A DNA stretch of 63,030 nt, the filler included, from Deltaproteobacteria bacterium (GTDB taxonomy: Bacteria > JAUYMQ01), in assembly GCA_030698575.1 (NCBI GenBank). It is 7 parts of 7 records of this genome, joined end to end, with 100 filler letters (N's around TTAATTAATTAA, not from the genome) between each part and the next. Parts side by side here need not be neighbours in the genome. Positions count along the whole stretch, not along the records: positions 1 to 6,388 come from JAUYMQ010000344.1; 6 more parts are not named here. The stretch is one strand, 5' to 3'. This document shows, piece after piece, positions 1-9,718 of the stretch. The notes beneath the pieces were generated by a model. That model ran no database searches. It saw only the letters and a list, made by a program, of their open reading frames with translations, and had not been told where the DNA came from. Every line of letters begins with the position of its first letter. The first letter of the stretch is position 1. The position numbers and the translations under genes are program-made.

Positions 1-99
1 GCCGTCGGTAATGCTCCGAAGCCATTTTTTCCGGTGAAGGACGGCCACTCCGGTCGTCGACCCGACAGCCCTCGAATCGCTCCGGGGACGTCCACATGT

Positions 100-117
100 T
101 GTAACCGAAATGTTACC
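100..117 (+). promoter_or_regulatory. Candidate regulator-binding site upstream of the cydA-like/nxrA operon
   Basis: TGTAACC (100-106) and TGTTACC (111-117) are direct repeats 11 bp apart. The same bases form the inverted repeat GTAAC-N6-GTTAC. Confidence 0.3.
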
Positions 118-162
118 TCCTCTTGCTAACCAACCGATGTCGTTCCTGCGGAGGACAGATCA

Positions 163-432
163 GTGAATGCCCGCGAGATGGCGGGAGAGAGCAAGTCGAT
201 GTCGTTTGTGGCGCGTATCTGGTTGGAACGCGGCCATAACGGAGAGCCCGTCTGGCGAGGGCATATCAAGCACGTTCAGGGCGGCGAGGAAAGCTACTTT
301 CAGGATCTTGGGGAGATGAACGAGTTTCTCGAACGCGTTAGCGGCATTCCCGGACCGTCAGCGGCAAGCGAATCCGGGGCCCATGCCTCTCCGCCATCCG
401 GCTCCGTCGCCAGAAGAAAGCGAAAGGTATGA
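163..432 (+). CDS. Small conserved-looking hypothetical protein, first gene of the nxr-like operon
   Basis: 89-aa ORF with GGAGGA RBS upstream. Pattern SFVARIWLE...WRGHIKHVQ...YF. Stop overlaps the next ATG (ATGA). Confidence 0.7.
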   Translation: MNAREMAGESKSMSFVARIWLERGHNGEPVWRGHIKHVQGGEESYFQDLGEMNEFLERVSGIPGPSAASESGAHASPPSGSVARRKRKV

Positions 433-2231
433 GGGAGACCGTGGTTATGGCGTGCGCGCGGAGGCTCGTCACTCGATACCTCTTTGTTGTTACGGCCGTC
501 GCCGCCGTCTTCGAGGCCGGCGTCGCCGCCGCACAGGGGGCGCCGCTGGCACCCGAATATGCCGCCCCTGCCTTGATGGACAGCCGGCTCGTGGTGTGGG
601 TCGCGGCTCAGCTACATCTCGACTTCGCCGCCTTCGTGTTGGCGGTGCCGATGTTCGCTCTGGTGATCGAGTTCTTCGGCTGGCGCATGGCCAAGCACGA
701 CGCGGCGGCGGCCACCCGGTACGACTGGCTGGCGCACGAGATGGCCCGTTTGCTCCCCGCGGCGTACTCCTTGACCGCCATTACGGGGGCGCTTCTCGGG
801 TTTATTCTGTTCAGCGCCTACCCGCGGTTCATGGGGTATCTCACGAATACGTTCGGGCCGACGTTCGTGGTCTATCCGCTATTCTTCGTCGCCGAAACGC
901 TGTGCCTCTACTTCTGGTACTACGCGTGGGACCGACTGCAGGGCGACCGCAAGTGGGCGCACTTGGTCTTGGGCCTGTTCCTCAACATCTTCGGCACGAT
1001 TGTCATGTTCATCGCCGATGCCTGGGCGACGTTCATGATGACGCCGACCGGGGTGGACCATCAGGGCGCGCTCGTCAGCCTCTATGACGCGGTGTGGAAC
1101 CCGGGCTGGATGCCGCTCAACATCCACCGCCTGATCGCCAACATCACCTTCGGCGCGCTGCTTTGCGCCGCATACGCCGCTTACCGATTCTTGAGCGCTC
1201 GTACGGAGAACGAGAGGGCCCTCTATGATTGGATGGGGTACACGGGCAACCTGATCGCTCTCTTCACCATGCTCTTCCTGCCCTTCGCGGGGTACTACTT
1301 CGGCTTCGAGCTCTTCGCCTTCTCGGCCACCTATGGCGTGACGCTGATGGGCGGGGTGCTCTCGTGGCTGTTCATTATCCAGGCCATCGTCATTGCCATC
1401 CTGTTCATTGGTGCGGCCTATTACGCCTGGCTCGGGCTCCTGCGAATCCCCGGCTCCGAACCCCAGCGGCGTTGGATACCGGCCTTCAACGTCATTCTCA
1501 TTCTCGGGTTCATGGTATGGGCGACGCCGCACACCATGGCTGCCTCGATCGAGGAATCGACCGGGCAGTTCCACCCGCTCCTCGGCGCCCTCGGCCTCAT
1601 GGCGCCGAAGATGATCGCGGTGACGCTTGTCCTCGTGGTGCTCTACGTGAGCTATCTCCTCTATCGACGGGCCGGCAAGGTTCTGACTGTTCCCTGGGCG
1701 CGGACGGGCACCATAGTGGAATGGGGCTTGGTCGGTCTGACGGCTTTCGCCATCACGGCGCTCGGAGTCTACGGCTACTTCGCCCCTGCCGACGTCCGGA
1801 TCGCCACCTCCATTTGGCAAATCGTCGTGCTCATCGCCGGCATCGTCGTCACTTTTGTTCTGGATCTGCTCCTGCTCCGCGGATCGCGAACGGTCGCCGA
1901 GGTGCGCTGGGGCAGCATGCCCCGGCGCGGTCAATACGTTCTCGTCACGTTGGCCTTCGTCATCGTCTGGCTAATGGGGCTGATGGGCTATGCGCGGAGC
2001 GGAGCACGCCTCAACTGGCACGTCTTCGGCATCGTGCAGGACACATCCGCGAGCGCCGGCCTTCCCACCCTGGGAGAGGCGGCGATCATGGTCACCTTGA
2101 TCACTGTCGTTTTCTTCGCGTTGCTCGCGATAGCCTTTGCGATCTCGGCCATGGCGGAGAGGGGCGCGCCGCCGCGCCTCGCGCCGGGGACTCGTGAGCC
2201 TGCGGCGACTTCGGAAGGAGTTCGAACGTGA
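429..2231 (+). CDS. Cytochrome bd ubiquinol oxidase subunit I-like (CydA-like) integral membrane protein, Nitrospira/anammox 'bd-like' type
   Basis: 600 aa with many TM helices. CydA-like His motifs AQLHLDFAAFVLAVP and PLNIHRLIAN. C-terminal MGYARSGARLNWHV replaces canonical GRQPW. Confidence 0.8.
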   Translation: MRETVVMACARRLVTRYLFVVTAVAAVFEAGVAAAQGAPLAPEYAAPALMDSRLVVWVAAQLHLDFAAFVLAVPMFALVIEFFGWRMAKHDAAAATRYDWLAHEMARLLPAAYSLTAITGALLGFILFSAYPRFMGYLTNTFGPTFVVYPLFFVAETLCLYFWYYAWDRLQGDRKWAHLVLGLFLNIFGTIVMFIADAWATFMMTPTGVDHQGALVSLYDAVWNPGWMPLNIHRLIANITFGALLCAAYAAYRFLSARTENERALYDWMGYTGNLIALFTMLFLPFAGYYFGFELFAFSATYGVTLMGGVLSWLFIIQAIVIAILFIGAAYYAWLGLLRIPGSEPQRRWIPAFNVILILGFMVWATPHTMAASIEESTGQFHPLLGALGLMAPKMIAVTLVLVVLYVSYLLYRRAGKVLTVPWARTGTIVEWGLVGLTAFAITALGVYGYFAPADVRIATSIWQIVVLIAGIVVTFVLDLLLLRGSRTVAEVRWGSMPRRGQYVLVTLAFVIVWLMGLMGYARSGARLNWHVFGIVQDTSASAGLPTLGEAAIMVTLITVVFFALLAIAFAISAMAERGAPPRLAPGTREPAATSEGVRT

Positions 2232-3064
2232 GTCGGACATCTTCCTATGCGGCGGCGACCTTGCCGGCCCTGATCGTGCTTGGCTTCATCGTCTGGTTCG
2301 CCAACTGGATCCCACAGACCCGCTGGGAGCCGCCAAAGACGAGGCAGATCACGGCGGCGATGTCGCCTTCCCAACTTGCGGGACTCGGCAAGGCGATTGT
2401 TCGCGAAAGGGGCTGCCTCGCCTGCCACACGATCGAGCCCGGTGTCGGCGTCAAGGGCCATGGGCGAGGCCCTAATCTCGCCAATATTGCGGCGCGGCGA
2501 GTCCAAGGTGTCCCTGGCGGCCCGGGCAACTTGGTCGAATATTTGGCCCAGGCCCTCTATGAGCCCGGAGCGTATCTGGTCGAGGGGTACGCCGGCATCA
2601 TGCCCTCTTCCGTGCGGGCTCCGGCCAAGCTCAACTACGAAGAAGTAACAGCCGCCGTCGCCTACCTCCAGTCCCTGGGCGGCAAGCCGACGGCGCGGGT
2701 GGGCGATTTGCCGCGACCGCCGGCCGAGGCAGAAACAGCGAGGACGACCCAGGGGGAAGGGACGGCAGGTGCGACCGATCCCAAGGACATTCTCACCAAG
2801 TTCGATTGTCTCACTTGCCACAGCCTGAAACCCGGCGAAGTGCTCGTCGGGCCGCCCTTCGAGACGACGTTATTGAAAAAGGCTGCGGCCGCGCGGGGTG
2901 TGACCCCCGAAGCCTACATCATGGAATCGATCATTGATCCGCGTGCCGTGGAAGTGGGCGACTTTCCCAAGGAGACGATGCCCGACGACTACGGGAAACG
3001 CTTGACCGCCGCGCAAATTTACGCGCTGACGCGCTATCTGATCGAGCCGGAGAAGAAGAAATGA
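2228..3064 (+). CDS. Membrane-anchored diheme cytochrome c
   Basis: N-terminal TM helix. Two CxxCH motifs (CLACH, CLTCH), each followed by a candidate distal Met (IMP, TMP). GTGA overlap with the upstream gene. Confidence 0.85.
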   Translation: MSRTSSYAAATLPALIVLGFIVWFANWIPQTRWEPPKTRQITAAMSPSQLAGLGKAIVRERGCLACHTIEPGVGVKGHGRGPNLANIAARRVQGVPGGPGNLVEYLAQALYEPGAYLVEGYAGIMPSSVRAPAKLNYEEVTAAVAYLQSLGGKPTARVGDLPRPPAEAETARTTQGEGTAGATDPKDILTKFDCLTCHSLKPGEVLVGPPFETTLLKKAAAARGVTPEAYIMESIIDPRAVEVGDFPKETMPDDYGKRLTAAQIYALTRYLIEPEKKK

Positions 3065-3861
3065 ACGCCGACACGCAAAGCCGAAACCGGTTTTCCGTGC
3101 CGCTTCCCGTTGGCGCGCTACTAGTCGTCGTCCTCGTTTTCGTAATGCTGAAGCTGATTCGGCCGGTGATCCCCCAAAGCGTCATCCTCTTGTACATGGG
3201 CTTCGTGGTGCTCGGCGTCGTCATTCACCTCACGCTCGACGACGATCGCATAAGACGGTTCTGGAACTTCTTCGTTCGCGCTGGAGACGAAGGTCCGGTT
3301 CTGCGCGCCCAACGCTGGGCGCTCCTCGCGGTGCTGCCCCTGGTCGCGGGATGGTGGGCCTACGACGCCGTGCGGCCGCGGTATACGCCGCCGGTCGAGA
3401 TCTTCCAGCGGCATCCGACGGTCGGAGAGGAGGTCCTGGGCCGGATCCAGGTGCCGGAGTGGGCGGCGAATCCCGCGAAATGGCGCGCCGAAGACATCGC
3501 CGAAGGCAAGAAGCTCTATGCGGCTAACTGCGCCGTCTGCCACGGCGAGAAGCTCGACGGCAATGGTCCAGCGGCGGCCGGCTTCCGTTATCCGATCCGG
3601 CCCGCGGACTTTCGCGACGTGGGTACGATCGCGCAGCTGACGATGCGTTACGTGTACTGGCGGATGACGACGGGCGGCATCCAGAATCAATTCAACAGCC
3701 CGATGCCGCGCTGGGTAGCTTCCGCCGATGGCCCTCAGGTCTCCACGCTCCATAGTTACGATTTCACGCCCGAAGAAGGATGGAAGGTCATCATCTATCT
3801 TTATCGGGCAACGGGTTACGAGCCGCGCAAGGAAGAGCTGCGCGACTATAAGAGCCATTGA
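3061..3861 (+). CDS. Membrane-anchored monoheme cytochrome c
   Basis: Three N-terminal hydrophobic segments, one CAVCH, candidate distal Met (SPMPRW). ATGA overlap. Confidence 0.85.
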   Translation: MNADTQSRNRFSVPLPVGALLVVVLVFVMLKLIRPVIPQSVILLYMGFVVLGVVIHLTLDDDRIRRFWNFFVRAGDEGPVLRAQRWALLAVLPLVAGWWAYDAVRPRYTPPVEIFQRHPTVGEEVLGRIQVPEWAANPAKWRAEDIAEGKKLYAANCAVCHGEKLDGNGPAAAGFRYPIRPADFRDVGTIAQLTMRYVYWRMTTGGIQNQFNSPMPRWVASADGPQVSTLHSYDFTPEEGWKVIIYLYRATGYEPRKEELRDYKSH

Positions 3862-6388
3862 TGGCCGGGGAAGGGAACATGGCGGAGACACCGTCCGGGG
3901 ACGAGACGATGAAAACGCGAAAGATCAGTCGCAGACATTTGTTGATGGGAGCGGCGGGAGTCGCCGGCGCCGCGGCCGGGGCGCAAGCGTTGCGCGGCCT
4001 CGCGGCGGAGCCGGGCTTCGAAGGCCGCGCCCTGGCCGTGGTCGCGCAAATCGAAAACCCGCTGGAATACTACCCCGACCGCGACTGGGAGGAAGTCTAC
4101 CGTAACCAGTACGCTTACGACCGCACGTTCACCTTTATCTGCGCGCCCAACGATACCCACATGTGCCGCGTGCGGGCCTTCGTGCGCAACGGCGTCGTGA
4201 TCCGCCTCGAGCAGAACTACGACTACCAGAGGTACTCGGACCTTTACGGCAACAAGGCGACGTACGCCTGGAATCCACGCATGTGCCTCAAGGGCTATAC
4301 GATACACCGGCGGGTGTACGGCCCCTACCGGGCCAAGGGTCCGATGATCCGGAAGGGCTGGAGGCAATGGGCCGATGACGGCTTCCCCGCCCTTTCGGAC
4401 GATCCCGCGCTGCGCACGAAATACAGGTTCGATTCGCGGGGAACGGACGACTTCGTCCGCGTGTCCTGGGATGAAGCGGCCACCTACTTGGCCAAAGGCC
4501 TGATGGCGATCGCGCGCACCTACAGCGGTGAGGAAGGAAAACGACGGCTCATCGAGAAGGACGGTTATCCCGCCGAGATGCTCGAGCACTGGGAGGGCGC
4601 CGGCACGAGGACGATCAAACTCGGGAGTTCGCTGCCCATTCACGGTGTCATCGGAAAGTTCGGCCTCTTCCGGATGGCTAATCTGCTTGGTCTGGTGGAC
4701 GCGCATGTGCGTGGCGTAGGGCCGGGCGAGGCGAAAGGAGCGCGGGAGTGGTCGGAATACACCTGGCGGGGGGACCAGGCGCCAGGACAGCCGTTCGTGC
4801 ATGGTTTGCAGACTTCGGACATCGACCTCAACGACCTCCGCTTCACGAAGTTTACGGTTCAGGTCGGGAAGAACCTGATCGAGAACAAGATGCCGGAGGC
4901 GCACTGGCTGACGGAATTGATGGAACGCGGCGCCCGCATCGCCGTGATCGCGCCAGAGTACAATCCGGCGGCGACCAAAGCGGATTACTGGATATCGGTT
5001 CGGCCCGGCCTCTCGGATACGGCCATCTTTCTCCACGTGACCAAGGCCCTTATGGACAAGGGCTGGTATGACGCGCCGTTCGTCAAGCAGTTCACCGATT
5101 TCCCGCTGCTCGTACGGACCGATACCCTCAAACGGCTCAAGCCGGAGGACGTCATTCGCGGATACCGTAACAAGGACATCAGTCGCGGGCCCAGCTTCAC
5201 GATCCATGGGATGACTGCCGAGCAACGCGACCGTCTCGGCGATTTCGTCGTTTACGACCTCACATCGCGGGGTTTCAGGCCGATCAGCCGCGACGACGTG
5301 GGCCGCAAAATTGCAGACGCCGGCATCGACCCCGCGCTGGAGTGGAGGGGTCGTGTCACGCTCTTGGATGGGGCTGAGATCGAGGTGATGACGGTGTGGG
5401 AGATGTATCGGGAGCATCTCCGGGACTACGACCTCGATACCACGGCCGATATCTGCGGGGCGCCGAAAGAGCTGATCGAAAAGCTCGTCGAGGATTTCGG
5501 GCGTCGTTTCTGGGATCCTGACTTTGTCGGCAGGCCCCGCGAGGCCTACCCAGTGGCGATCCACTTCGGCGAGGGCATCAACCATTATTATCATGCGACA
5601 CTACACAATCGCGCGACCTTTCTGCCGCTGATGCTGATCGGCAGCGTCGGCTTCCACGGGGCAGGCGCGCATACCTGGGCCGGAAACTACAAGGGCGCGC
5701 TGCTACAGGGCTCCGGGTGGTCGGGGCCGGGTGTCGGCGGCGCCTGGGTGAAAGAAGACCCCTTTAATCAGGTGCTCGACCCGGATGGACAAATCCGACC
5801 CGAAAACATCCGCGAACTTCTGCATGGCGAGGAAATGAGCTACTGGGGCTTTGGCGATCGGCCCCTGATCGTCGACACGCCGGGAGAGGGGCGCAAGAAC
5901 TTCACGGGCCGAACCCACATGCCGTCGCCCACCAAGGCGATGTGGTACTGCAACGCCAACCTCATCAACCAGGCTAAATGGGTCTACCACCTTCTCGTCC
6001 ACGTTAATCCCAAGGTCGACCTTATCGTCGACCAGCAAGTCGAGTGGACGGGATCGGCCGAGTATTCCGACATTGTGCTGCCGGCGAATACCTGGCTCGA
6101 GTTCGAGGATCTCGAGTGCGGCGCCTCCTGCTCCAATCCCTTCCTCCAATTATGGGGCGGCAACGGGATCAAGCCGCTCTACGACTCCAAGGATGACGGG
6201 ATGATCTTCGCCCTCGTTTCGCAGAAGCTCACCGAGCTCACGAACGACCATCGATTCCGGGACCACTGGAAATTCGTCCTCGAGGGCAAGTCCCAAGTCT
6301 ACATCCAGCGGGTGTTCGACAACTGCACCACGACGAAGGGTTACAAGGTTTCCGACATCATGGAGGGCAAGTATGGGGAGCCGGGGGC
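3861..6388 (+). CDS. nxrA: Periplasmic nitrite oxidoreductase/nitrate reductase alpha subunit (type II DMSO reductase family, Nitrospira/anammox NxrA-like); 3' end cut by contig end
   Basis: Tat signal SRRHLL. N-terminal [19 protein letters not shown]0 motif C-x3-D-x3-C...C (CAPNDTHMC...PRMC). Mo-ligand region [19 protein letters not shown] and HTWAGNYK blocks. Alternative starts at 3879 and 3909. Confidence 0.85.
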
Positions 6389-6488: not shown

Positions 6489-9473
6489 CGAAGCCCCCGT
6501 CGTCCGATTCGAAGTCGGAGTAGAAGAGCTGCCCGTCGATCCCGACCCCCGTGCTGTCCGCGAAAAACACATTGACGGTCTGCGCCACCGTGTCCGTAAG
6601 ATCAATCGTCACCCTGCCCAGGGCGGAGCTCTGCACATTCGCCGTAGTGGTCCCGCCGCCGGAGACGAGCGTCCCCTCGGTCGCGGCGGCTGCAAATCGG
6701 GCGCTCCCGGTGGTCGTGAGCCGGAAGGGAACCCCCGCCTTCTCAACCGGGGTGCCGTCGCGGAGGCGGAGCTGCACGGTGACCGCTGCGGCAGACGGAC
6801 GGATTACCGGGCTGGCAGCCGTCAGCTCGGCCTGCGCAAGGACGGGGATCGGATCAGTGTTGTCCGGCCGGCCGTCGCCGTCCGTGTCCGTCCGGGTCGG
6901 GTCCGTAATGAATCCATCCACGCCGGGTATCGTCTCCTCCCCGTCGCCCAGCGTGTCGCCATCGCTGTCGGGGTTGCCCGCGTTCGTGCCGATCGCCAGC
7001 TCCTGCCTCGCCGTCAGGCCGTCGCCGTCGTGGTCGCTGTCCAGGTCGTTCGGATCGTTCGGATCGAGCCCGTTGGCCGTCTCGACCGAATCGGTCGCGC
7101 CGTCGCCGTCGGTGTCCAGGGACTGGTAGAGGATCTTCAACGGAACGTAGGGACTGGAGGACCTGGCGCTTCCTCCCTCCCCGGGCGCCATGTGGACCCT
7201 TAGCTCGGGGAAGCTGGTATTGGTCGCGAAGATCAGCTCGAAGGCGTAGAAGCCCGGCACGGGGAAGTTGACCGCCCGGTTCGTCCTGCCGGAGAAGCGG
7301 CTCGGGAAGTCCAGGACGTTCTTCCCGCCGATTCGCAGGCGCGTCGCGACCTGACAGCACTCATAGATCTGGAAGTCGATCGGGCCGGGCACGTCGACGC
7401 GGATGAAGCCCGAAAGCCGCGCCACGCCGGGGAACGCGTTCGGGAATCCCCCGTTGGAGCGGCTCAGGTTCAGGTCCCGGTTGATCATCTGCTCGACCAC
7501 CGAGACGACGCCCGGATCGCCGGGCTCCAGGAGGAGGGTCGCCTCGGCCTGGTCGAGGTCCGGCGCATCACAGCAGACCGAGCTCGTGCCGGTCTGGACG
7601 AAGCGCCCGTGGAGCCCGTCTCCATTGTGGATCGGCGCGACGGCGAAGGCGCTCGCCGGATCGAGGAAGGCCGCCGCGAGCAAGTCGAGCCCCACGGTCG
7701 TGCGCTGGACGTTCCCGTTCAGATCGCCGGCTTCGAAAACGAGGGCGGCGTCCGTGGCGAGGGGATCCACGAAGCGGATGAAGCTGTCGAAGCTGGCCGT
7801 GCCGTCCGGATGGACCGTGAGCGGGAAGTAACCCGTCACGTCGTACGTCGCCCCCACCGGGATCTGGCTCGACGGCCCGTAGAGCCGCAGCGTGACCTTC
7901 CAGCTCATGACGTCCAGCCCTGCGGCCAGCGTCTCCTCCACCACGCTTCCGGCAATGTGGAACATGTTCGGATCGGTGGGGAATCCGGTCGTCTGGACCG
8001 TGAGCTCGGGCTCCACCTGGTCGCCCCAGAAGATCACGTCCATCTGGGTCACGGCCGGCAGCAGCCCGCCGAAGGTCGGATCGGGAACGGTCCGCGAGAG
8101 GACGACGTTCTCCCCACTCGGGCGGCGCGCGAAATCGGGGAGCAGCGCGCGCAGATCCGTCCCGTCGCGGTTGATCCAGGCGCCGAGAAAGACCGGCATG
8201 GACAGATCGACGTCGTTCGGGTCGGTCGGATCGTAGCGGACGTCGGGAATCACGGTCGTCCGGGAGAGCGAGCGCCGGACGGCCTGGAGGAATTCCTTCG
8301 CCTTCGCCTCGTTCTCGAACTGCTCCGGCGCGATGACCAGCAGGTCGTCGTTCTGGGGGTCGGTCTCGGCGTCGAGGGCCTTGAGCCCGGCCAGCAGGTT
8401 GTCGATCCCCAGATATATGACCAGCCGGAGCGCCGACAGATCGGAGGTGGATACCAGGCGAAGGAAGTCGGGGTTGGCCAGGATCACGTCCTGCTGGACG
8501 TCCAGCGTGCGGTCATAGCCCCGCTGCACGAGGACATCGATAGCGCCCGGATCCAGGTTGTAGGAATTCCCGACGCGGATGGCGGCGTCGGCGAGATAGA
8601 GCGCGCCCAGGAGCACCTTCACGTCGGCAATGTCCACCTCCACCGGGCCAAGCCCCTCGCCGAGGCGGTCGGCCGGGAAGTGATAGACGAAACCCTTCTT
8701 GATCCGCCGGAGCTGGGCCTGCGCCAGGCGAATCTGGAGAAGGACGTTCCGGTCGGCGAAGCGCTGCACGTCCGGAATTCCGGGCGACGTCGGCGGAAGC
8801 TCAATCTGGCCGGCCGCGTTCATCGGCAGCATGGCCGTCCAGTCGAACAGAACGCGCCCCTCGGCGGGCATCCCGAGCGCGTCGAGGAACTCGCCGGCGG
8901 AGTCCAGAACGAACGGATTGGCCCCGGGAAGCGTGGGGTCGAGAAGAATCGCGATGCGCGTGAGGGCAAGAAGGAGTGCGGCAGGCTGGTTGCTGCGATC
9001 CAGCCTTGTGGCCTCGATGAAGGCGTCACGCGCCGCCAGGAGGTCGCGGCGCGCCATGAAATCGATCCCCAGTTCGATGTAGTCGTCGACGGAAACGGCT
9101 GTATCCACAGAGAAGGTCGACGTGGCGGTGAAGGTCTTGATGACGAACTGGAAGAGGAAGGGATCGAAAACCTCCCCCATGGCCGCGGCTTCGAGCACGT
9201 GCGGGCCCGGGCCAAGTCCGCCGAGAGTGGCGGTGGCTATTCCCAATCCCAGGGTGAAGTCGGAGTGACGTCGAAGCCGTCCAGCGTCACGACGAGCGTG
9301 GCCGGTTGAACCGGGTCCTTTAGTCCAATCCTGGCCGGCAGGCTCGTTTCGAAGTAGGTGTTGGAATTCGCGGGGAGAAGCACGCGGAGCGGTTCTGCGG
9401 CGTGAGCCTCGGGAAGGGCCCACGCTAGCGCAGCGGCGACCAGAACGGCCACCCACCGGGCCATTCGCGTCAT
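6489..9473 (-). CDS. Large secreted/surface protein (PA14-like domain, Ca-binding DxDxDG repeats, Ig-like domain); apparent 1-nt frameshift near 9265; 3' end cut by contig end
   Basis: Signal-peptide ORF 9473..9237 (MTRMARWVAVLVAAALAWALPEAHA) with AGAGGA RBS joins the long ORF at V-T/S-D-F-T-L-G if one base is added. Repeats DTDGDG, DHDGDG, DSDGDT, DTDGDG. Confidence 0.7.
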
Positions 9474-9549
9474 GCTGGATTTCCTCTTCTGCGCTGGCCT
9501 GAGTGAGCAACGCCGGCAGGAATCGCCGGAGCCCGCGCCGTATTAGCCA

Positions 9550-9565
9550 TGCAATCCCCGTGCCG
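9550..9565 (-). promoter_or_regulatory. Putative sigma54 (-24/-12) promoter for the surface-protein gene
   Basis: Minus strand CGGCACGGGGATTGCA (GG-N10-GC), about 77 bp upstream of ATG 9473. Confidence 0.6.
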
Positions 9566-9718
9566 ACGGAATCGCGGGATTGCGGATCCTTTCGGTCCGA
9601 ACGGAAGCGCTTCAATTCAAAGGACAATCGGAAAAGCGGGCCGAAGCCTGACACCCGGGTATGTCACCGGTCGACGGAAAGTATTTCTCAATAATGGAAA
9701 TTTATTTCTGCTAAGAGG

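What the first reader, a model, noticed from the sequence alone, without database searches (positions are those of the whole stretch)
163..6388. Periplasmic NXR-type respiratory operon in an apparently non-nitrifier, deltaproteobacteria-like genome
Seen: five genes linked by overlapping stop/start codons (ATGA, GTGA, ATGA, TGATG): small protein, CydA-like protein, diheme cytochrome c, monoheme cytochrome c, and a Tat-exported Mo enzyme with NxrA-type blocks. Known: this alpha-subunit type is the periplasmic NXR of Nitrospira, Nitrospina and anammox bacteria, and anammox nxr clusters also carry bd-subunit-I-like and c-type cytochrome genes. Inference: a lineage whose other contigs look deltaproteobacterial may oxidise nitrite or respire nitrate with this complex. 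Reaction direction cannot be read from sequence, and contig 1 is not physically linked to the housekeeping contigs.
Basis: partly seen in the sequence, partly recalled or inferred. Interest (0 to 1): 0.85.

Follow-up and report, generated by a model that had tools for sequence, protein, structure and literature searches.

The report
NXR-type operon on doubtful contig
A short contig carries the front part of a nitrite/nitrate oxidoreductase gene cassette that is common in uncultured proteobacteria, and its link to the rare deltaproteobacteria-like genome it was binned with is not secure.

Summary
Window 1-6388 is one whole 6,388-bp contig (C235). It carries five overlapping genes: a small protein, a bd-like membrane protein, a dihaem and a monohaem cytochrome c, and a Tat-exported NxrA cut off at the contig end. 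NxrA scores 1090 bits against Kuenenia NXR-A and keeps its Mo and FS0 ligand motifs. The same gene order, followed by nxrB, a TorD-like gene and nxrC, occurs in 28 of 80 related loci, 26 of them labelled Pseudomonadota. In a tree the window's NxrA nests inside a clade whose 23 named rows are all Pseudomonadota. The host bin is deltaproteobacteria-like by RpoB and belongs to a GTDB phylum with only three species. Nothing ties C235 to it physically. The rest of the operon is missing from the bin and both family relatives lack the cassette. The nearest relative (93% identical) lies on a 140-kb contig with a probably proteobacterial flank and a base composition like the bin's. I put mis-binning at about 60% and recent transfer at about 35%. 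NXR-type genes in non-nitrifier MAGs are already in print, function unknown. Separately, contig C514 carries a second, more distant NXR-family operon that is genuinely linked to host genes.

The parts
1..162 (+). Upstream non-coding end of contig C235
   Evidence: No sigma-70-like promoter was found, and terminator-like sites are at the chance level. There is no Rfam match. The first 201 bases do not align with the nearest relative L093.
163..432 (+). Small conserved protein (89 aa) of unknown function, first gene of the cassette
   Evidence: It has no Pfam or NCBIfam family. tblastn finds homologues at the same position in 14 of 80 related loci. The nearest Atlas clusters are unnamed proteins commonest in Chloroflexota, scoring 0.89, which is a lead only.
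429..2231 (+). bd-like membrane protein (600 aa, about 12-14 hydrophobic segments), probably haem b-binding
   Evidence: PF01654 matches only profile positions 2-232 of 418. It aligns to CydA chain 5doq_A residues 8-209, with His63 and His233 on conserved His positions. Hydrophobic segments were counted. It is 73-84% identical to the syntenic gene in 28 loci. This matches the 14-helix bd-like oxidase of NXR clusters described in PMC3578206.
2228..3064 (+). Membrane-anchored dihaem cytochrome c (278 aa)
   Evidence: It has two CxxCH motifs at residues 63 and 194 and one N-terminal hydrophobic segment. Pfam gives Cytochrom_C and Cytochrome_CBB3.
3061..3861 (+). Membrane-anchored monohaem cytochrome c (266 aa)
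   Evidence: It has one CxxCH motif at residue 157 and two N-terminal hydrophobic segments. Pfam gives cytochrome c families.
3858..6388 (+). nxrA, Tat-exported molybdopterin subunit, cut off by the contig end after 843 codons. The likely true start is the ATG at 3909.
   Evidence: It scores 1090 bits against 7b04_B. It has SRRHLL at residues 24-29, the FS0 motif C95-A-P-N98-D99-T-H-M-C103 plus C143, and the Mo-ligand motif Y301-x4-D306. These correspond to Cys67/Asn70/Asp71 and Asp275 of KsNXR-A (PMC8387239 passages). The homologue in L093 starts at the Met that aligns with window 3909.

Best explanation
Contig C235 is the 5' part of a conserved respiratory cassette. Its gene order is small protein, bd-like haem b membrane protein, membrane-anchored dihaem c, membrane-anchored monohaem c, NxrA. 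In complete relatives NxrB, a TorD-like chaperone and the haem b subunit NxrC follow. The enzyme belongs to the periplasmic NXR family, the same family as the anammox enzyme. It sits in a subclade carried almost entirely by uncultured Alpha-, Beta- and Gammaproteobacteria.

Shown: gene content, motifs, synteny and tree position.

Inferred mechanism: NxrA/B are exported by Tat. Nitrite and nitrate interconvert at the Mo site in the periplasm. Electrons pass along FS0-FS4 and the NxrC haem b to the two membrane-anchored cytochromes c. From there they go either to a haem-copper oxidase (nitrite oxidation) or come from quinol through the bd-like protein (nitrate reduction).

My odds for the main physiological direction in this clade are about 50% quinol-dependent periplasmic nitrate reduction, 35% nitrite oxidation and 15% another oxyanion. 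As for the host, the contig more likely does not belong to the deltaproteobacteria-like genome (about 60% mis-binned from a proteobacterium of similar composition) than it is a recent acquisition (about 35%).
For: - **Family.** NxrA scores 1090 bits against Kuenenia NXR-A, with the next hits at 172 bits (PcrA-type) and 98 bits (NarG). The Tat, FS0 (3Cys/1Asp) and Mo-Asp motifs are present.
- **Cassette.** 28 of 80 related loci have bd-like, dihaem, monohaem and nxrA in the same order. 24 loci have nxrB, a TorD-like gene and nxrC downstream.
- **Literature.** The same gene set is described for Kuenenia, Nitrospira and Nitrospina (PMC3578206 passages).
- **Tree.** 69 rows were used. C235 pairs with L093 (SH-aLRT 99). 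The pair is sister to Rhodobacteraceae/Rhizobiaceae rows (100). All lie inside a 26-row clade (99) whose 23 named rows are all Pseudomonadota.
- **Not tied to the bin.**
  - L093's NxrA C-terminus, NxrB, TorD-like protein and NxrC find only 31-46% identical paralogues in G000, while the C235 parts are 80-93% identical.
  - C235's ends share no k-mer overlap with any bin contig.
  - NxrA was not found in G001 (90% complete) or G002 (72% complete).
  - None of the 13 ORFs on L093 outside the nxr genes has a G000 hit above 37% identity.
  - The L093 flank nitrilase has 8 named hits among 120 listed: 6 Betaproteobacteria-type, 1 Alphaproteobacteria, 1 Anaeromyxobacter.
  - L093's flanks correlate 0.958 with the bin's tetranucleotide profile and L093's cassette segment 0.939, against 0.945 for C235 itself. 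Composition therefore cannot tell them apart.
- **Reversibility.** NXR is shown to be reversible for Kuenenia (PMC8387239 abstract and passages).
Against: - C235's tetranucleotide profile is inside the bin's range. It is at the 15th percentile of 150 contigs of 5-8 kb, and it fits better than 22 of 22 homologous segments from named genomes.
- C235 and the housekeeping contig C241 show the same pattern over three runs of one study. C235 word shares are 0.93, 0.35 and 0.00. C241 is fully covered in X1, patchy in X2 and has only tiny conserved pieces in X3.
- The proteobacterial origin of L093 rests on one flank gene.
- The tree is a 'quick' search without bootstraps. It has no verified Nitrospira, Nitrospina or Nitrotoga row, and its single outgroup is on a long branch.
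- The direction of catalysis is untested. Of 31 cassette-bearing genomes, 21 also have a canonical NarG, which argues against a simple stand-in role for nitrate reductase. 14 have a RuBisCO large subunit, which keeps lithoautotrophic nitrite oxidation open.
Confidence: 0.6

Rival explanations
1. The contig is a true part of the deltaproteobacteria-like genome. This rare lineage recently acquired the whole cassette from a proteobacterium and uses it for nitrate respiration or for nitrite oxidation coupled to its haem-copper oxidases.
For: The contig was binned with G000. Its tetranucleotide fit is at the 15th percentile and better than 22 of 22 decoys. Its presence pattern over three runs matches that of host contig C241. 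[quoted passage not shown] One of these, on C514, is an NXR-family operon physically linked to a host-typical dinB. The cassette looks mobile: IS110 and rve transposase genes lie beside it in L033.
Against: There is no physical link. The rest of the cassette is absent from a 91.6% complete bin. 0 of 2 family relatives carry it. 93% protein identity to a contig with a probably proteobacterial flank would require a very recent cross-phylum transfer. Composition does not discriminate. Bin contamination is 4.6%.
Confidence: 0.35
2. The enzyme of this proteobacterial subclade acts on another oxyanion, such as chlorate, perchlorate or selenate, rather than nitrite or nitrate.
For: Type II DMSO reductases have changed substrate repeatedly. 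No member of this subclade has been assayed; only MAGs appeared among the 80 loci. The authors of PMC9306079 leave the function open.
Against: The substrate-side Asn, the Mo-ligand Asp and the 3Cys/1Asp FS0 motif of the Kuenenia enzyme are all kept. Identity to anammox NxrA is 54-59%, far higher than the similarity to PcrA-type chains (172 bits against 1090).
Confidence: 0.1
3. The contig is mis-binned from a known nitrifier, an anammox bacterium or a Chloroflexi nitrite oxidiser.
For: The enzyme family is the one used by those organisms.
Against: In one search identity is 54-59% to the rows labelled Planctomycetota or Brocadiia, 64% to the Nitrospinota-labelled row and 65-67% to the two Chloroflexota rows. 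It is 75-82% to the Pseudomonadota rows and 93% to L093. The tree puts C235 inside the Pseudomonadota clade with support of 99-100.
Confidence: 0.02

Closest known systems
Kuenenia stuttgartiensis NXR (PDB 7B04; nxr cluster kustd1699-1713)
   Same: The catalytic subunit is of the same family (1090 bits). Identity to the row labelled Kuenenia is 56.8%. It has a Tat signal, the Mo-ligand Asp, the substrate-side Asn and the 3Cys/1Asp FS0 motif. The partner gene set is bd-like protein plus mono- and dihaem c.
   Different: It belongs to a different subclade. The bd-like gene and the cytochrome c genes sit directly upstream in one overlapping operon. No hits to them were found within the flanks held for the anammox loci. 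No NXR-T or anammoxosome context is expected. The window copy is truncated.
Periplasmic NXR gene sets of Nitrospira and Nitrospina with the 'bd-like oxidase' (PMC3578206)
   Same: The bd-like protein has many helices. Its N-terminal part aligns with CydA and keeps the His positions, and the Q-loop part is not matched. One monohaem and one dihaem cytochrome c are present.
   Different: No verified Nitrospira or Nitrospina sequence was available to me, so the relationship is by literature and by one Nitrospinota-labelled MAG row (64% identity). No cupredoxin or multicopper oxidase genes are seen on the contig.
Periplasmic Nxr-like genes of heterotrophic MAGs in nitritation-anammox reactors (PMC9306079; for example Ideonella sp. 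H5_PRO6 = locus L013)
   Same: L013 lies in the same 26-row clade and has the same gene order. [quoted passage not shown]
   Different: The window copy is 76% identical to L013's NxrA and was binned with a non-proteobacterial genome. I did not see that paper's Fig. S5 tree, which is a PDF supplement.
Nitrotoga / periplasmic NAR 'sister clade' (PMC6050957)
   Same: It is a periplasmic, Tat-exported type II DMSO-reductase enzyme with a soluble haem b subunit. This is the likely home of the bin's second operon on C514, which scores 932 bits against 7b04_B and is 42% identical to the window's NxrA.
   Different: The window's NxrA is much closer to anammox NxrA than to C514's. Assigning C514 to the Nitrotoga-type clade is my inference; no named sequence of that clade was compared.

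Membership tests
Periplasmic NXR alpha subunit (Nitrospira/Nitrospina/anammox type, type II DMSO reductase family) | Twin-arginine signal for export | tested here: met
   SRRHLL at residues 24-29 of the ORF.
Periplasmic NXR alpha subunit (Nitrospira/Nitrospina/anammox type, type II DMSO reductase family) | Mo-ligand Asp in the Y-4x-D motif | tested here: met
   YTWRGD with Asp306. It aligns with YTWHGD of 7b04_B. The motif and Asp275 are described in PMC6050957 and PMC8387239 passages.
Periplasmic NXR alpha subunit (Nitrospira/Nitrospina/anammox type, type II DMSO reductase family) | FS0 cluster motif with 3 Cys and 1 Asp, and the substrate-side Asn | tested here: met
   C95-A-P-N98-D99-T-H-M-C103 and C143 correspond to Cys67/Asn70/Asp71 of KsNXR-A.
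Periplasmic NXR alpha subunit (Nitrospira/Nitrospina/anammox type, type II DMSO reductase family) | Closer to solved NXR-A than to other type II enzymes | tested here: met
   1090 bits against 172 (PcrA-type), 126 (EbdA) and 98 (NarG).
Periplasmic NXR alpha subunit (Nitrospira/Nitrospina/anammox type, type II DMSO reductase family) | Placement inside the Nitrospira/Nitrospina/anammox clade proper | tested here: inconclusive
   It groups with anammox and one Nitrospinota-labelled row against the C514 outgroup, but in a separate Pseudomonadota subclade. The tree has no verified Nitrospira, Nitrospina or Nitrotoga row.
Periplasmic NXR alpha subunit (Nitrospira/Nitrospina/anammox type, type II DMSO reductase family) | Adjacent nxrB and nxrC partners | tested here: inconclusive
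   The contig ends inside nxrA. The partners follow in 24 syntenic loci. In the bin only 31-46% identical paralogues were found.
Periplasmic NXR alpha subunit (Nitrospira/Nitrospina/anammox type, type II DMSO reductase family) | Nitrite-oxidising or nitrate-reducing activity | not testable with these tools
   No cultured carrier was seen among the 80 loci, and no RNA run is listed.
Cytochrome bd oxidase subunit I (CydA) | Full-length match to PF01654, including the Q-loop and C-terminal half | tested here: not met
   Only profile positions 2-232 of 418 match. The PDB alignment covers CydA residues 8-209 only.
Cytochrome bd oxidase subunit I (CydA) | Conserved N-terminal His positions for haem b | tested here: met
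   His63 and His233 align with His residues of 5doq_A. That these are the haem ligands is from PMC3578206 and my recall.
Cytochrome bd oxidase subunit I (CydA) | Adjacent cydB (subunit II) | tested here: not met
   The next genes are two cytochromes c.
Cytoplasmic respiratory nitrate reductase NarG | Score over the TIGR01580 cut-off | tested here: not met
   129 bits against a cut-off of 1084. The ORF is truncated, but it also has a Tat signal, which I recall NarG lacks.

The most novel reading that the evidence does not exclude
The contig is genuine. A member of a three-species candidate phylum in groundwater then holds two periplasmic NXR-family systems. One is a complete bd-like/cytochrome c/NXR cassette recently taken from proteobacteria. 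With its haem-copper oxidases it gains energy from nitrite oxidation without being a classical autotrophic nitrifier. More widely, this uncharacterised cassette would make many denitrifying Alpha-, Beta- and Gammaproteobacteria facultative nitrite oxidisers. 14 of the 31 cassette-bearing genomes searched have a RuBisCO large subunit.
Probability: 0.12. Interest if true: 0.7.

Novelty: new member of a known kind. Interest (0 to 1): 0.35.

Why it matters
Nitrite oxidation is credited to a handful of lineages. NXR-type genes in other organisms are counted as 'nxr' in many metagenome surveys without anyone knowing which way the enzyme runs. This contig adds one more copy of a widespread, syntenic and apparently mobile cassette. 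It shows how easily such a copy can be credited to the wrong genome. What would matter is a functional test of the cassette in any carrier. If it oxidises nitrite in heterotrophic or facultatively autotrophic proteobacteria, nitrification budgets and nxrA-based surveys would need revising. If it reduces nitrate, it is a third, quinol-linked periplasmic nitrate reductase system beside Nap and Nar.

Tried and rejected
- **Plasmids.** tblastn of NxrA against 72,556 plasmid records gave 5 records, all at 26-35% identity. There is no close plasmid copy.
- **Expression.** No RNA holder is listed.
- **Coverage.** I tried to lay runs on C235 plus C236 together to compare depth. 
- **Whole-record search.** The 140-kb record behind L093 is not held. 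Its organism therefore rests on one flank gene.
- **Contig ends.** No k-mer overlap (21-127 bases) was found between C235's ends and any other bin contig.
- **Longer copies.** No near-identical longer copy exists among the 153 loci held. The best is L093 at 84-87% nucleotide identity.
- **Signals.** There are 0 promoter-like sites. The 5 terminator-like sites equal the shuffle mean of 5.0. There is no Rfam match at E up to 0.1.
- **Readings rejected.**
  - A canonical bd oxidase: only the N-terminal half matches and there is no cydB.
  - NarG.
  - Origin from anammox, Nitrospinota or Chloroflexota.
  - C514's nxrB/nxrC/TorD-like genes as the missing partners of C235: they are only 31-46% identical to L093's.
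- **Literature.** Searches found no paper describing this exact synteny in proteobacteria. These were four keyword searches of open-access text only, so this is not proof that none exists.
- Two papers opened for nxr passages added nothing here (PMC10935808; PMC12098122).


Full report
**Observation.** The window is seven contigs of one assembly (G000: 4.13 Mb, 653 contigs, 91.6% complete, 4.6% contaminated) joined by N spacers. The finding covers the whole of contig C235, 6,388 bp.

The + strand carries five ORFs at 163-432, 429-2231, 2228-3064, 3061-3861 and 3858-6386. Their stop and start codons overlap as ATGA, GTGA, ATGA and TGATG.
- ORF1 (89 aa) has no family.
- ORF2 (600 aa) matches Cyt_bd_oxida_I over profile positions 2-232 of 418 only.
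- ORF3 has two CxxCH motifs and one N-terminal hydrophobic segment.
- ORF4 has one CxxCH motif and two such segments.
- ORF5 is a molybdopterin protein with the twin-arginine motif SRRHLL. It runs off the contig after 843 codons.

**What the Mo enzyme is.** ORF5 matches Kuenenia NXR-A (7b04_B) at 1090 bits over residues 37-843. The next solved relatives are PcrA-type chains at 172 bits, EbdA at 126 and NarG at 98. It scores 129 bits on the narG model, whose cut-off is 1084.

It keeps the features that Chicano et al. describe for the active site (PMC8387239 passages). These are the Mo-ligand Asp (YTWRGD, Asp306) and the unusual 3Cys/1Asp FS0 motif with the substrate-side Asn (C95-A-P-N98-D99-T-H-M-C103, C143).

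**The membrane protein.** ORF2 aligns with residues 8-209 of a solved CydA. His63 and His233 fall on conserved His positions, and nothing matches beyond that. Lücker et al. describe the 'bd-like oxidase' of the NXR clusters of Kuenenia, Nitrospira and Nitrospina in just this way. Those clusters also hold one monohaem and one dihaem cytochrome c (PMC3578206 passages). The Atlas's nearest clusters for ORF2 are long CydA-family proteins commonest in Nitrospirota and Pseudomonadota.

**A conserved cassette.** A scan of species genomes found 578 related stretches, and the best 80 were kept.
- In 28 of these 80 loci the bd-like gene, the dihaem c and the monohaem c lie directly upstream of nxrA in the window's order.
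- Identities there are 73-84%, 51-67% and 65-72% respectively.
- Of these 28 loci, 26 are labelled Alpha-, Beta- or Gammaproteobacteria, one Dehalococcoidia and one Thermomicrobiales.
- 24 loci show nxrB, a TorD-like gene and nxrC downstream.
- The small ORF1 is found in 14 loci.
- The loci labelled anammox, Acidobacteriota, Elusimicrobia, Tectomicrobia and Nitrospinota show no bd-like or dihaem hit in the DNA held.

In 16 loci whose flanks I scanned, further genes recur beside the cassette. These are a BTAD-domain regulator upstream in 9 loci, a Usp+PCP_red protein, a radical SAM+SPASM+PCP_red protein and an amine-oxidase-like flavoprotein. L033 has IS110 and rve transposase genes next to the regulator.

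**Phylogeny.** A 69-row tree of the region homologous to the 843 residues was rooted on the bin's own distant paralogue from C514.
- C235 pairs with metagenome locus L093 (SH-aLRT 99).
- The pair is sister to Rhodobacteraceae/Rhizobiaceae rows (100).
- All lie within a 26-row clade (99) whose 23 named rows are all Pseudomonadota.
- Anammox rows form a separate group.

Identities are 93% to L093 and 75-82% to Pseudomonadota rows. They are 61-67% to Chloroflexota, Acidobacteriota, Elusimicrobiota, Nitrospinota and Tectomicrobia rows and 54-59% to anammox rows.

The tree was a quick search without bootstraps. I had no verified Nitrospira, Nitrospina or Nitrotoga sequence. A published study puts one member of this clade, Ideonella sp. 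[quoted passage not shown] It states that whether such genes serve nitrite oxidation or nitrate reduction is unknown (PMC9306079 passages; its Fig. S5 was not seen). Other surveys also report nxrA in non-nitrifier MAGs (PMC10359470 passages).

**The host.**
- G000's RpoB is 81-84% identical to proteins labelled 'Deltaproteobacteria bacterium RBG_13_65_10' and 'Myxococcota bacterium'.
- It is 71-75% identical, over about two thirds of its length, to Myxococcales-type proteins.
- The genome's GTDB phylum holds only three species genomes, G000, G001 and G002, all in one family.

'Deltaproteobacteria-like, not a known nitrifier lineage' therefore holds.

**Is the contig the host's?** The evidence in favour is as follows.
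- Its tetranucleotide profile correlates 0.945 with the rest of the bin. This is the 15th percentile of 150 contigs of 5-8 kb, and it is better than all 22 homologous segments from named genomes (0.80-0.93).
- Its GC content is 62.5%, against 65.3 ± 2.3% for the bin.
- Over three runs of one groundwater study, C235's word shares are 0.93, 0.35 and 0.00.
- The housekeeping contig C241 (clpB, alaS, recA) is fully covered in X1, patchy in X2 and has only tiny conserved pieces in X3.

The evidence against is as follows.
- All five genes belong to the cassette, so there is no physical link to a host gene.
- The remainder of the cassette is not in the bin. L093's NxrA C-terminus, NxrB, TorD-like protein and NxrC find only C514's paralogues at 31-46% identity.
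- C235's ends overlap no other bin contig.
- Neither G001 (90% complete) nor G002 (72% complete) has the gene.
- The closest protein (P0002, 93%) lies on a 140-kb metagenome contig.
  - That contig's cassette is 84.6% identical in DNA to C235.
  - Its other 13 ORFs have no G000 hit above 37%.
  - One flank gene, a nitrilase, has 8 named homologues among 120 listed: 6 Betaproteobacteria-type, 1 Alphaproteobacteria and 1 Anaeromyxobacter.
- That contig's flanks correlate 0.958 with G000's tetranucleotide profile and its cassette segment 0.939. Composition therefore cannot separate G000 from such an organism.

Weighing these, I put mis-binning at about 60%, recent horizontal acquisition at about 35% and other explanations at about 5%.

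**The rest of the bin.**
- G000 has two strong haem-copper oxidase subunit I genes.
- No RuBisCO large subunit and no cd1 nitrite reductase were found.
- No other CydA-like gene was found.
- narH-narJ-narI lie on C476.

Contig C514 carries a complete second operon:
- a Tat-exported alpha subunit of 1166 aa, scoring 932 bits against 7b04_B and 42% identical to the window's NxrA;
- a beta subunit;
- an EB_dh-type gamma subunit;
- a TorD-like chaperone.

This operon sits next to lexA and dinB. That dinB is 74-75% identical to genes in G001 and G002, so C514 is a genuine host contig. The alpha subunit itself is not in G001 or G002. The lineage therefore does hold an NXR-family enzyme, but not the one in the finding.

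**Mechanism.** Family membership and motifs establish the following:
- a periplasmic Mo-bisMGD enzyme;
- an FeS chain, by homology;
- two membrane-anchored c cytochromes;
- a polytopic bd-like protein that probably binds haem b.

The electron path is inferred. Electrons would pass between the Mo site and the cytochromes c through NxrB and NxrC. From there they would go onward to a terminal oxidase (nitrite oxidation). Alternatively they would come from quinol through the bd-like protein (nitrate reduction).

The Kuenenia enzyme catalyses both reactions (PMC8387239). Among the 31 genomes behind the cassette loci, 21 have NarG over the model's cut-off, 21 have cd1 nitrite reductase and 14 have a RuBisCO large subunit. 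The carriers are thus mostly denitrifiers, and nearly half are possibly autotrophic.

A built-in quinol-side module in organisms with no evident need for reverse electron flow leans me toward nitrate reduction (about 50%). The frequent presence of Nar and RuBisCO keeps nitrite oxidation (about 35%) well alive.

**Verdict.** The cassette is one more member of a widespread, apparently mobile family that has been noted before and never characterised. Its attribution to the deltaproteobacteria-like genome is unproven and more likely wrong. Interest is moderate to low for this contig. The open question is the function of the cassette family as a whole.

Noticed in passing
G000 contig C514 (not in the window; locus L164:3838-10101): A complete second periplasmic NXR-family operon: a Tat-exported alpha subunit of 1166 aa (932 bits against 7b04_B), a beta subunit, an EB_dh-type gamma subunit and a TorD-like chaperone. 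It lies next to lexA and dinB. The dinB is 74-75% identical to genes in both family relatives, so this operon is physically linked to the host. The alpha subunit is not found in those relatives.
   Followed up: partly
Loci L009, L010, L017, L020, L021, L033, L035, L036, L084, L093 (flanks of the cassette): Four genes recur beside the cassette: a BTAD-domain regulator, a Usp+PCP_red protein, a radical SAM+SPASM+PCP_red protein and an amine-oxidase-like (HemY-like?) flavoprotein. They lie downstream in alphaproteobacterial loci and upstream and divergent in betaproteobacterial loci. They may be a cofactor or maturation module that travels with the cassette. None has a close homologue in G000.
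   Followed up: partly
L078 (record labelled Candidatus Desulfatibia sp.): Its NxrA sits inside the Scalindua group of anammox rows with support of 100. The locus also has the anammox-type gene order. This is probably a mis-binned anammox contig in a public MAG.
   Followed up: no
G000 as a whole: The genome's GTDB phylum holds only three species genomes, all in one family. Its RpoB carries an extra stretch compared with Myxococcales-type RpoB: those hits cover only about 67% of the query.
   Followed up: partly
window 6489-9654 (- strand, contig C236): A protein of more than 1055 aa with no Pfam family, running off the contig end. It has acidic D-x-D-x-D-G-type repeats near one end that resemble calcium-binding repeats (recalled, not tested).
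   Followed up: no
G000 contig C476: narH, narJ and narI of a cytoplasmic nitrate reductase start at the contig's first bases. The narG that should precede them was not looked for specifically.
   Followed up: no
L033:743-2582: Transposase genes with rve and IS110 family domains lie directly upstream of the cassette's BTAD regulator in a Rhodobacteraceae MAG. This fits with the cassette being mobile.
   Followed up: no
Genomes G071, G073, G076 (behind L023, L025, L029): The cassette lies on the same contig as denitrification genes. The cd1 nirS cluster is about 25 kb away in G071 and about 49 kb away in G073. narG is about 13 kb away in G076.
   Followed up: no
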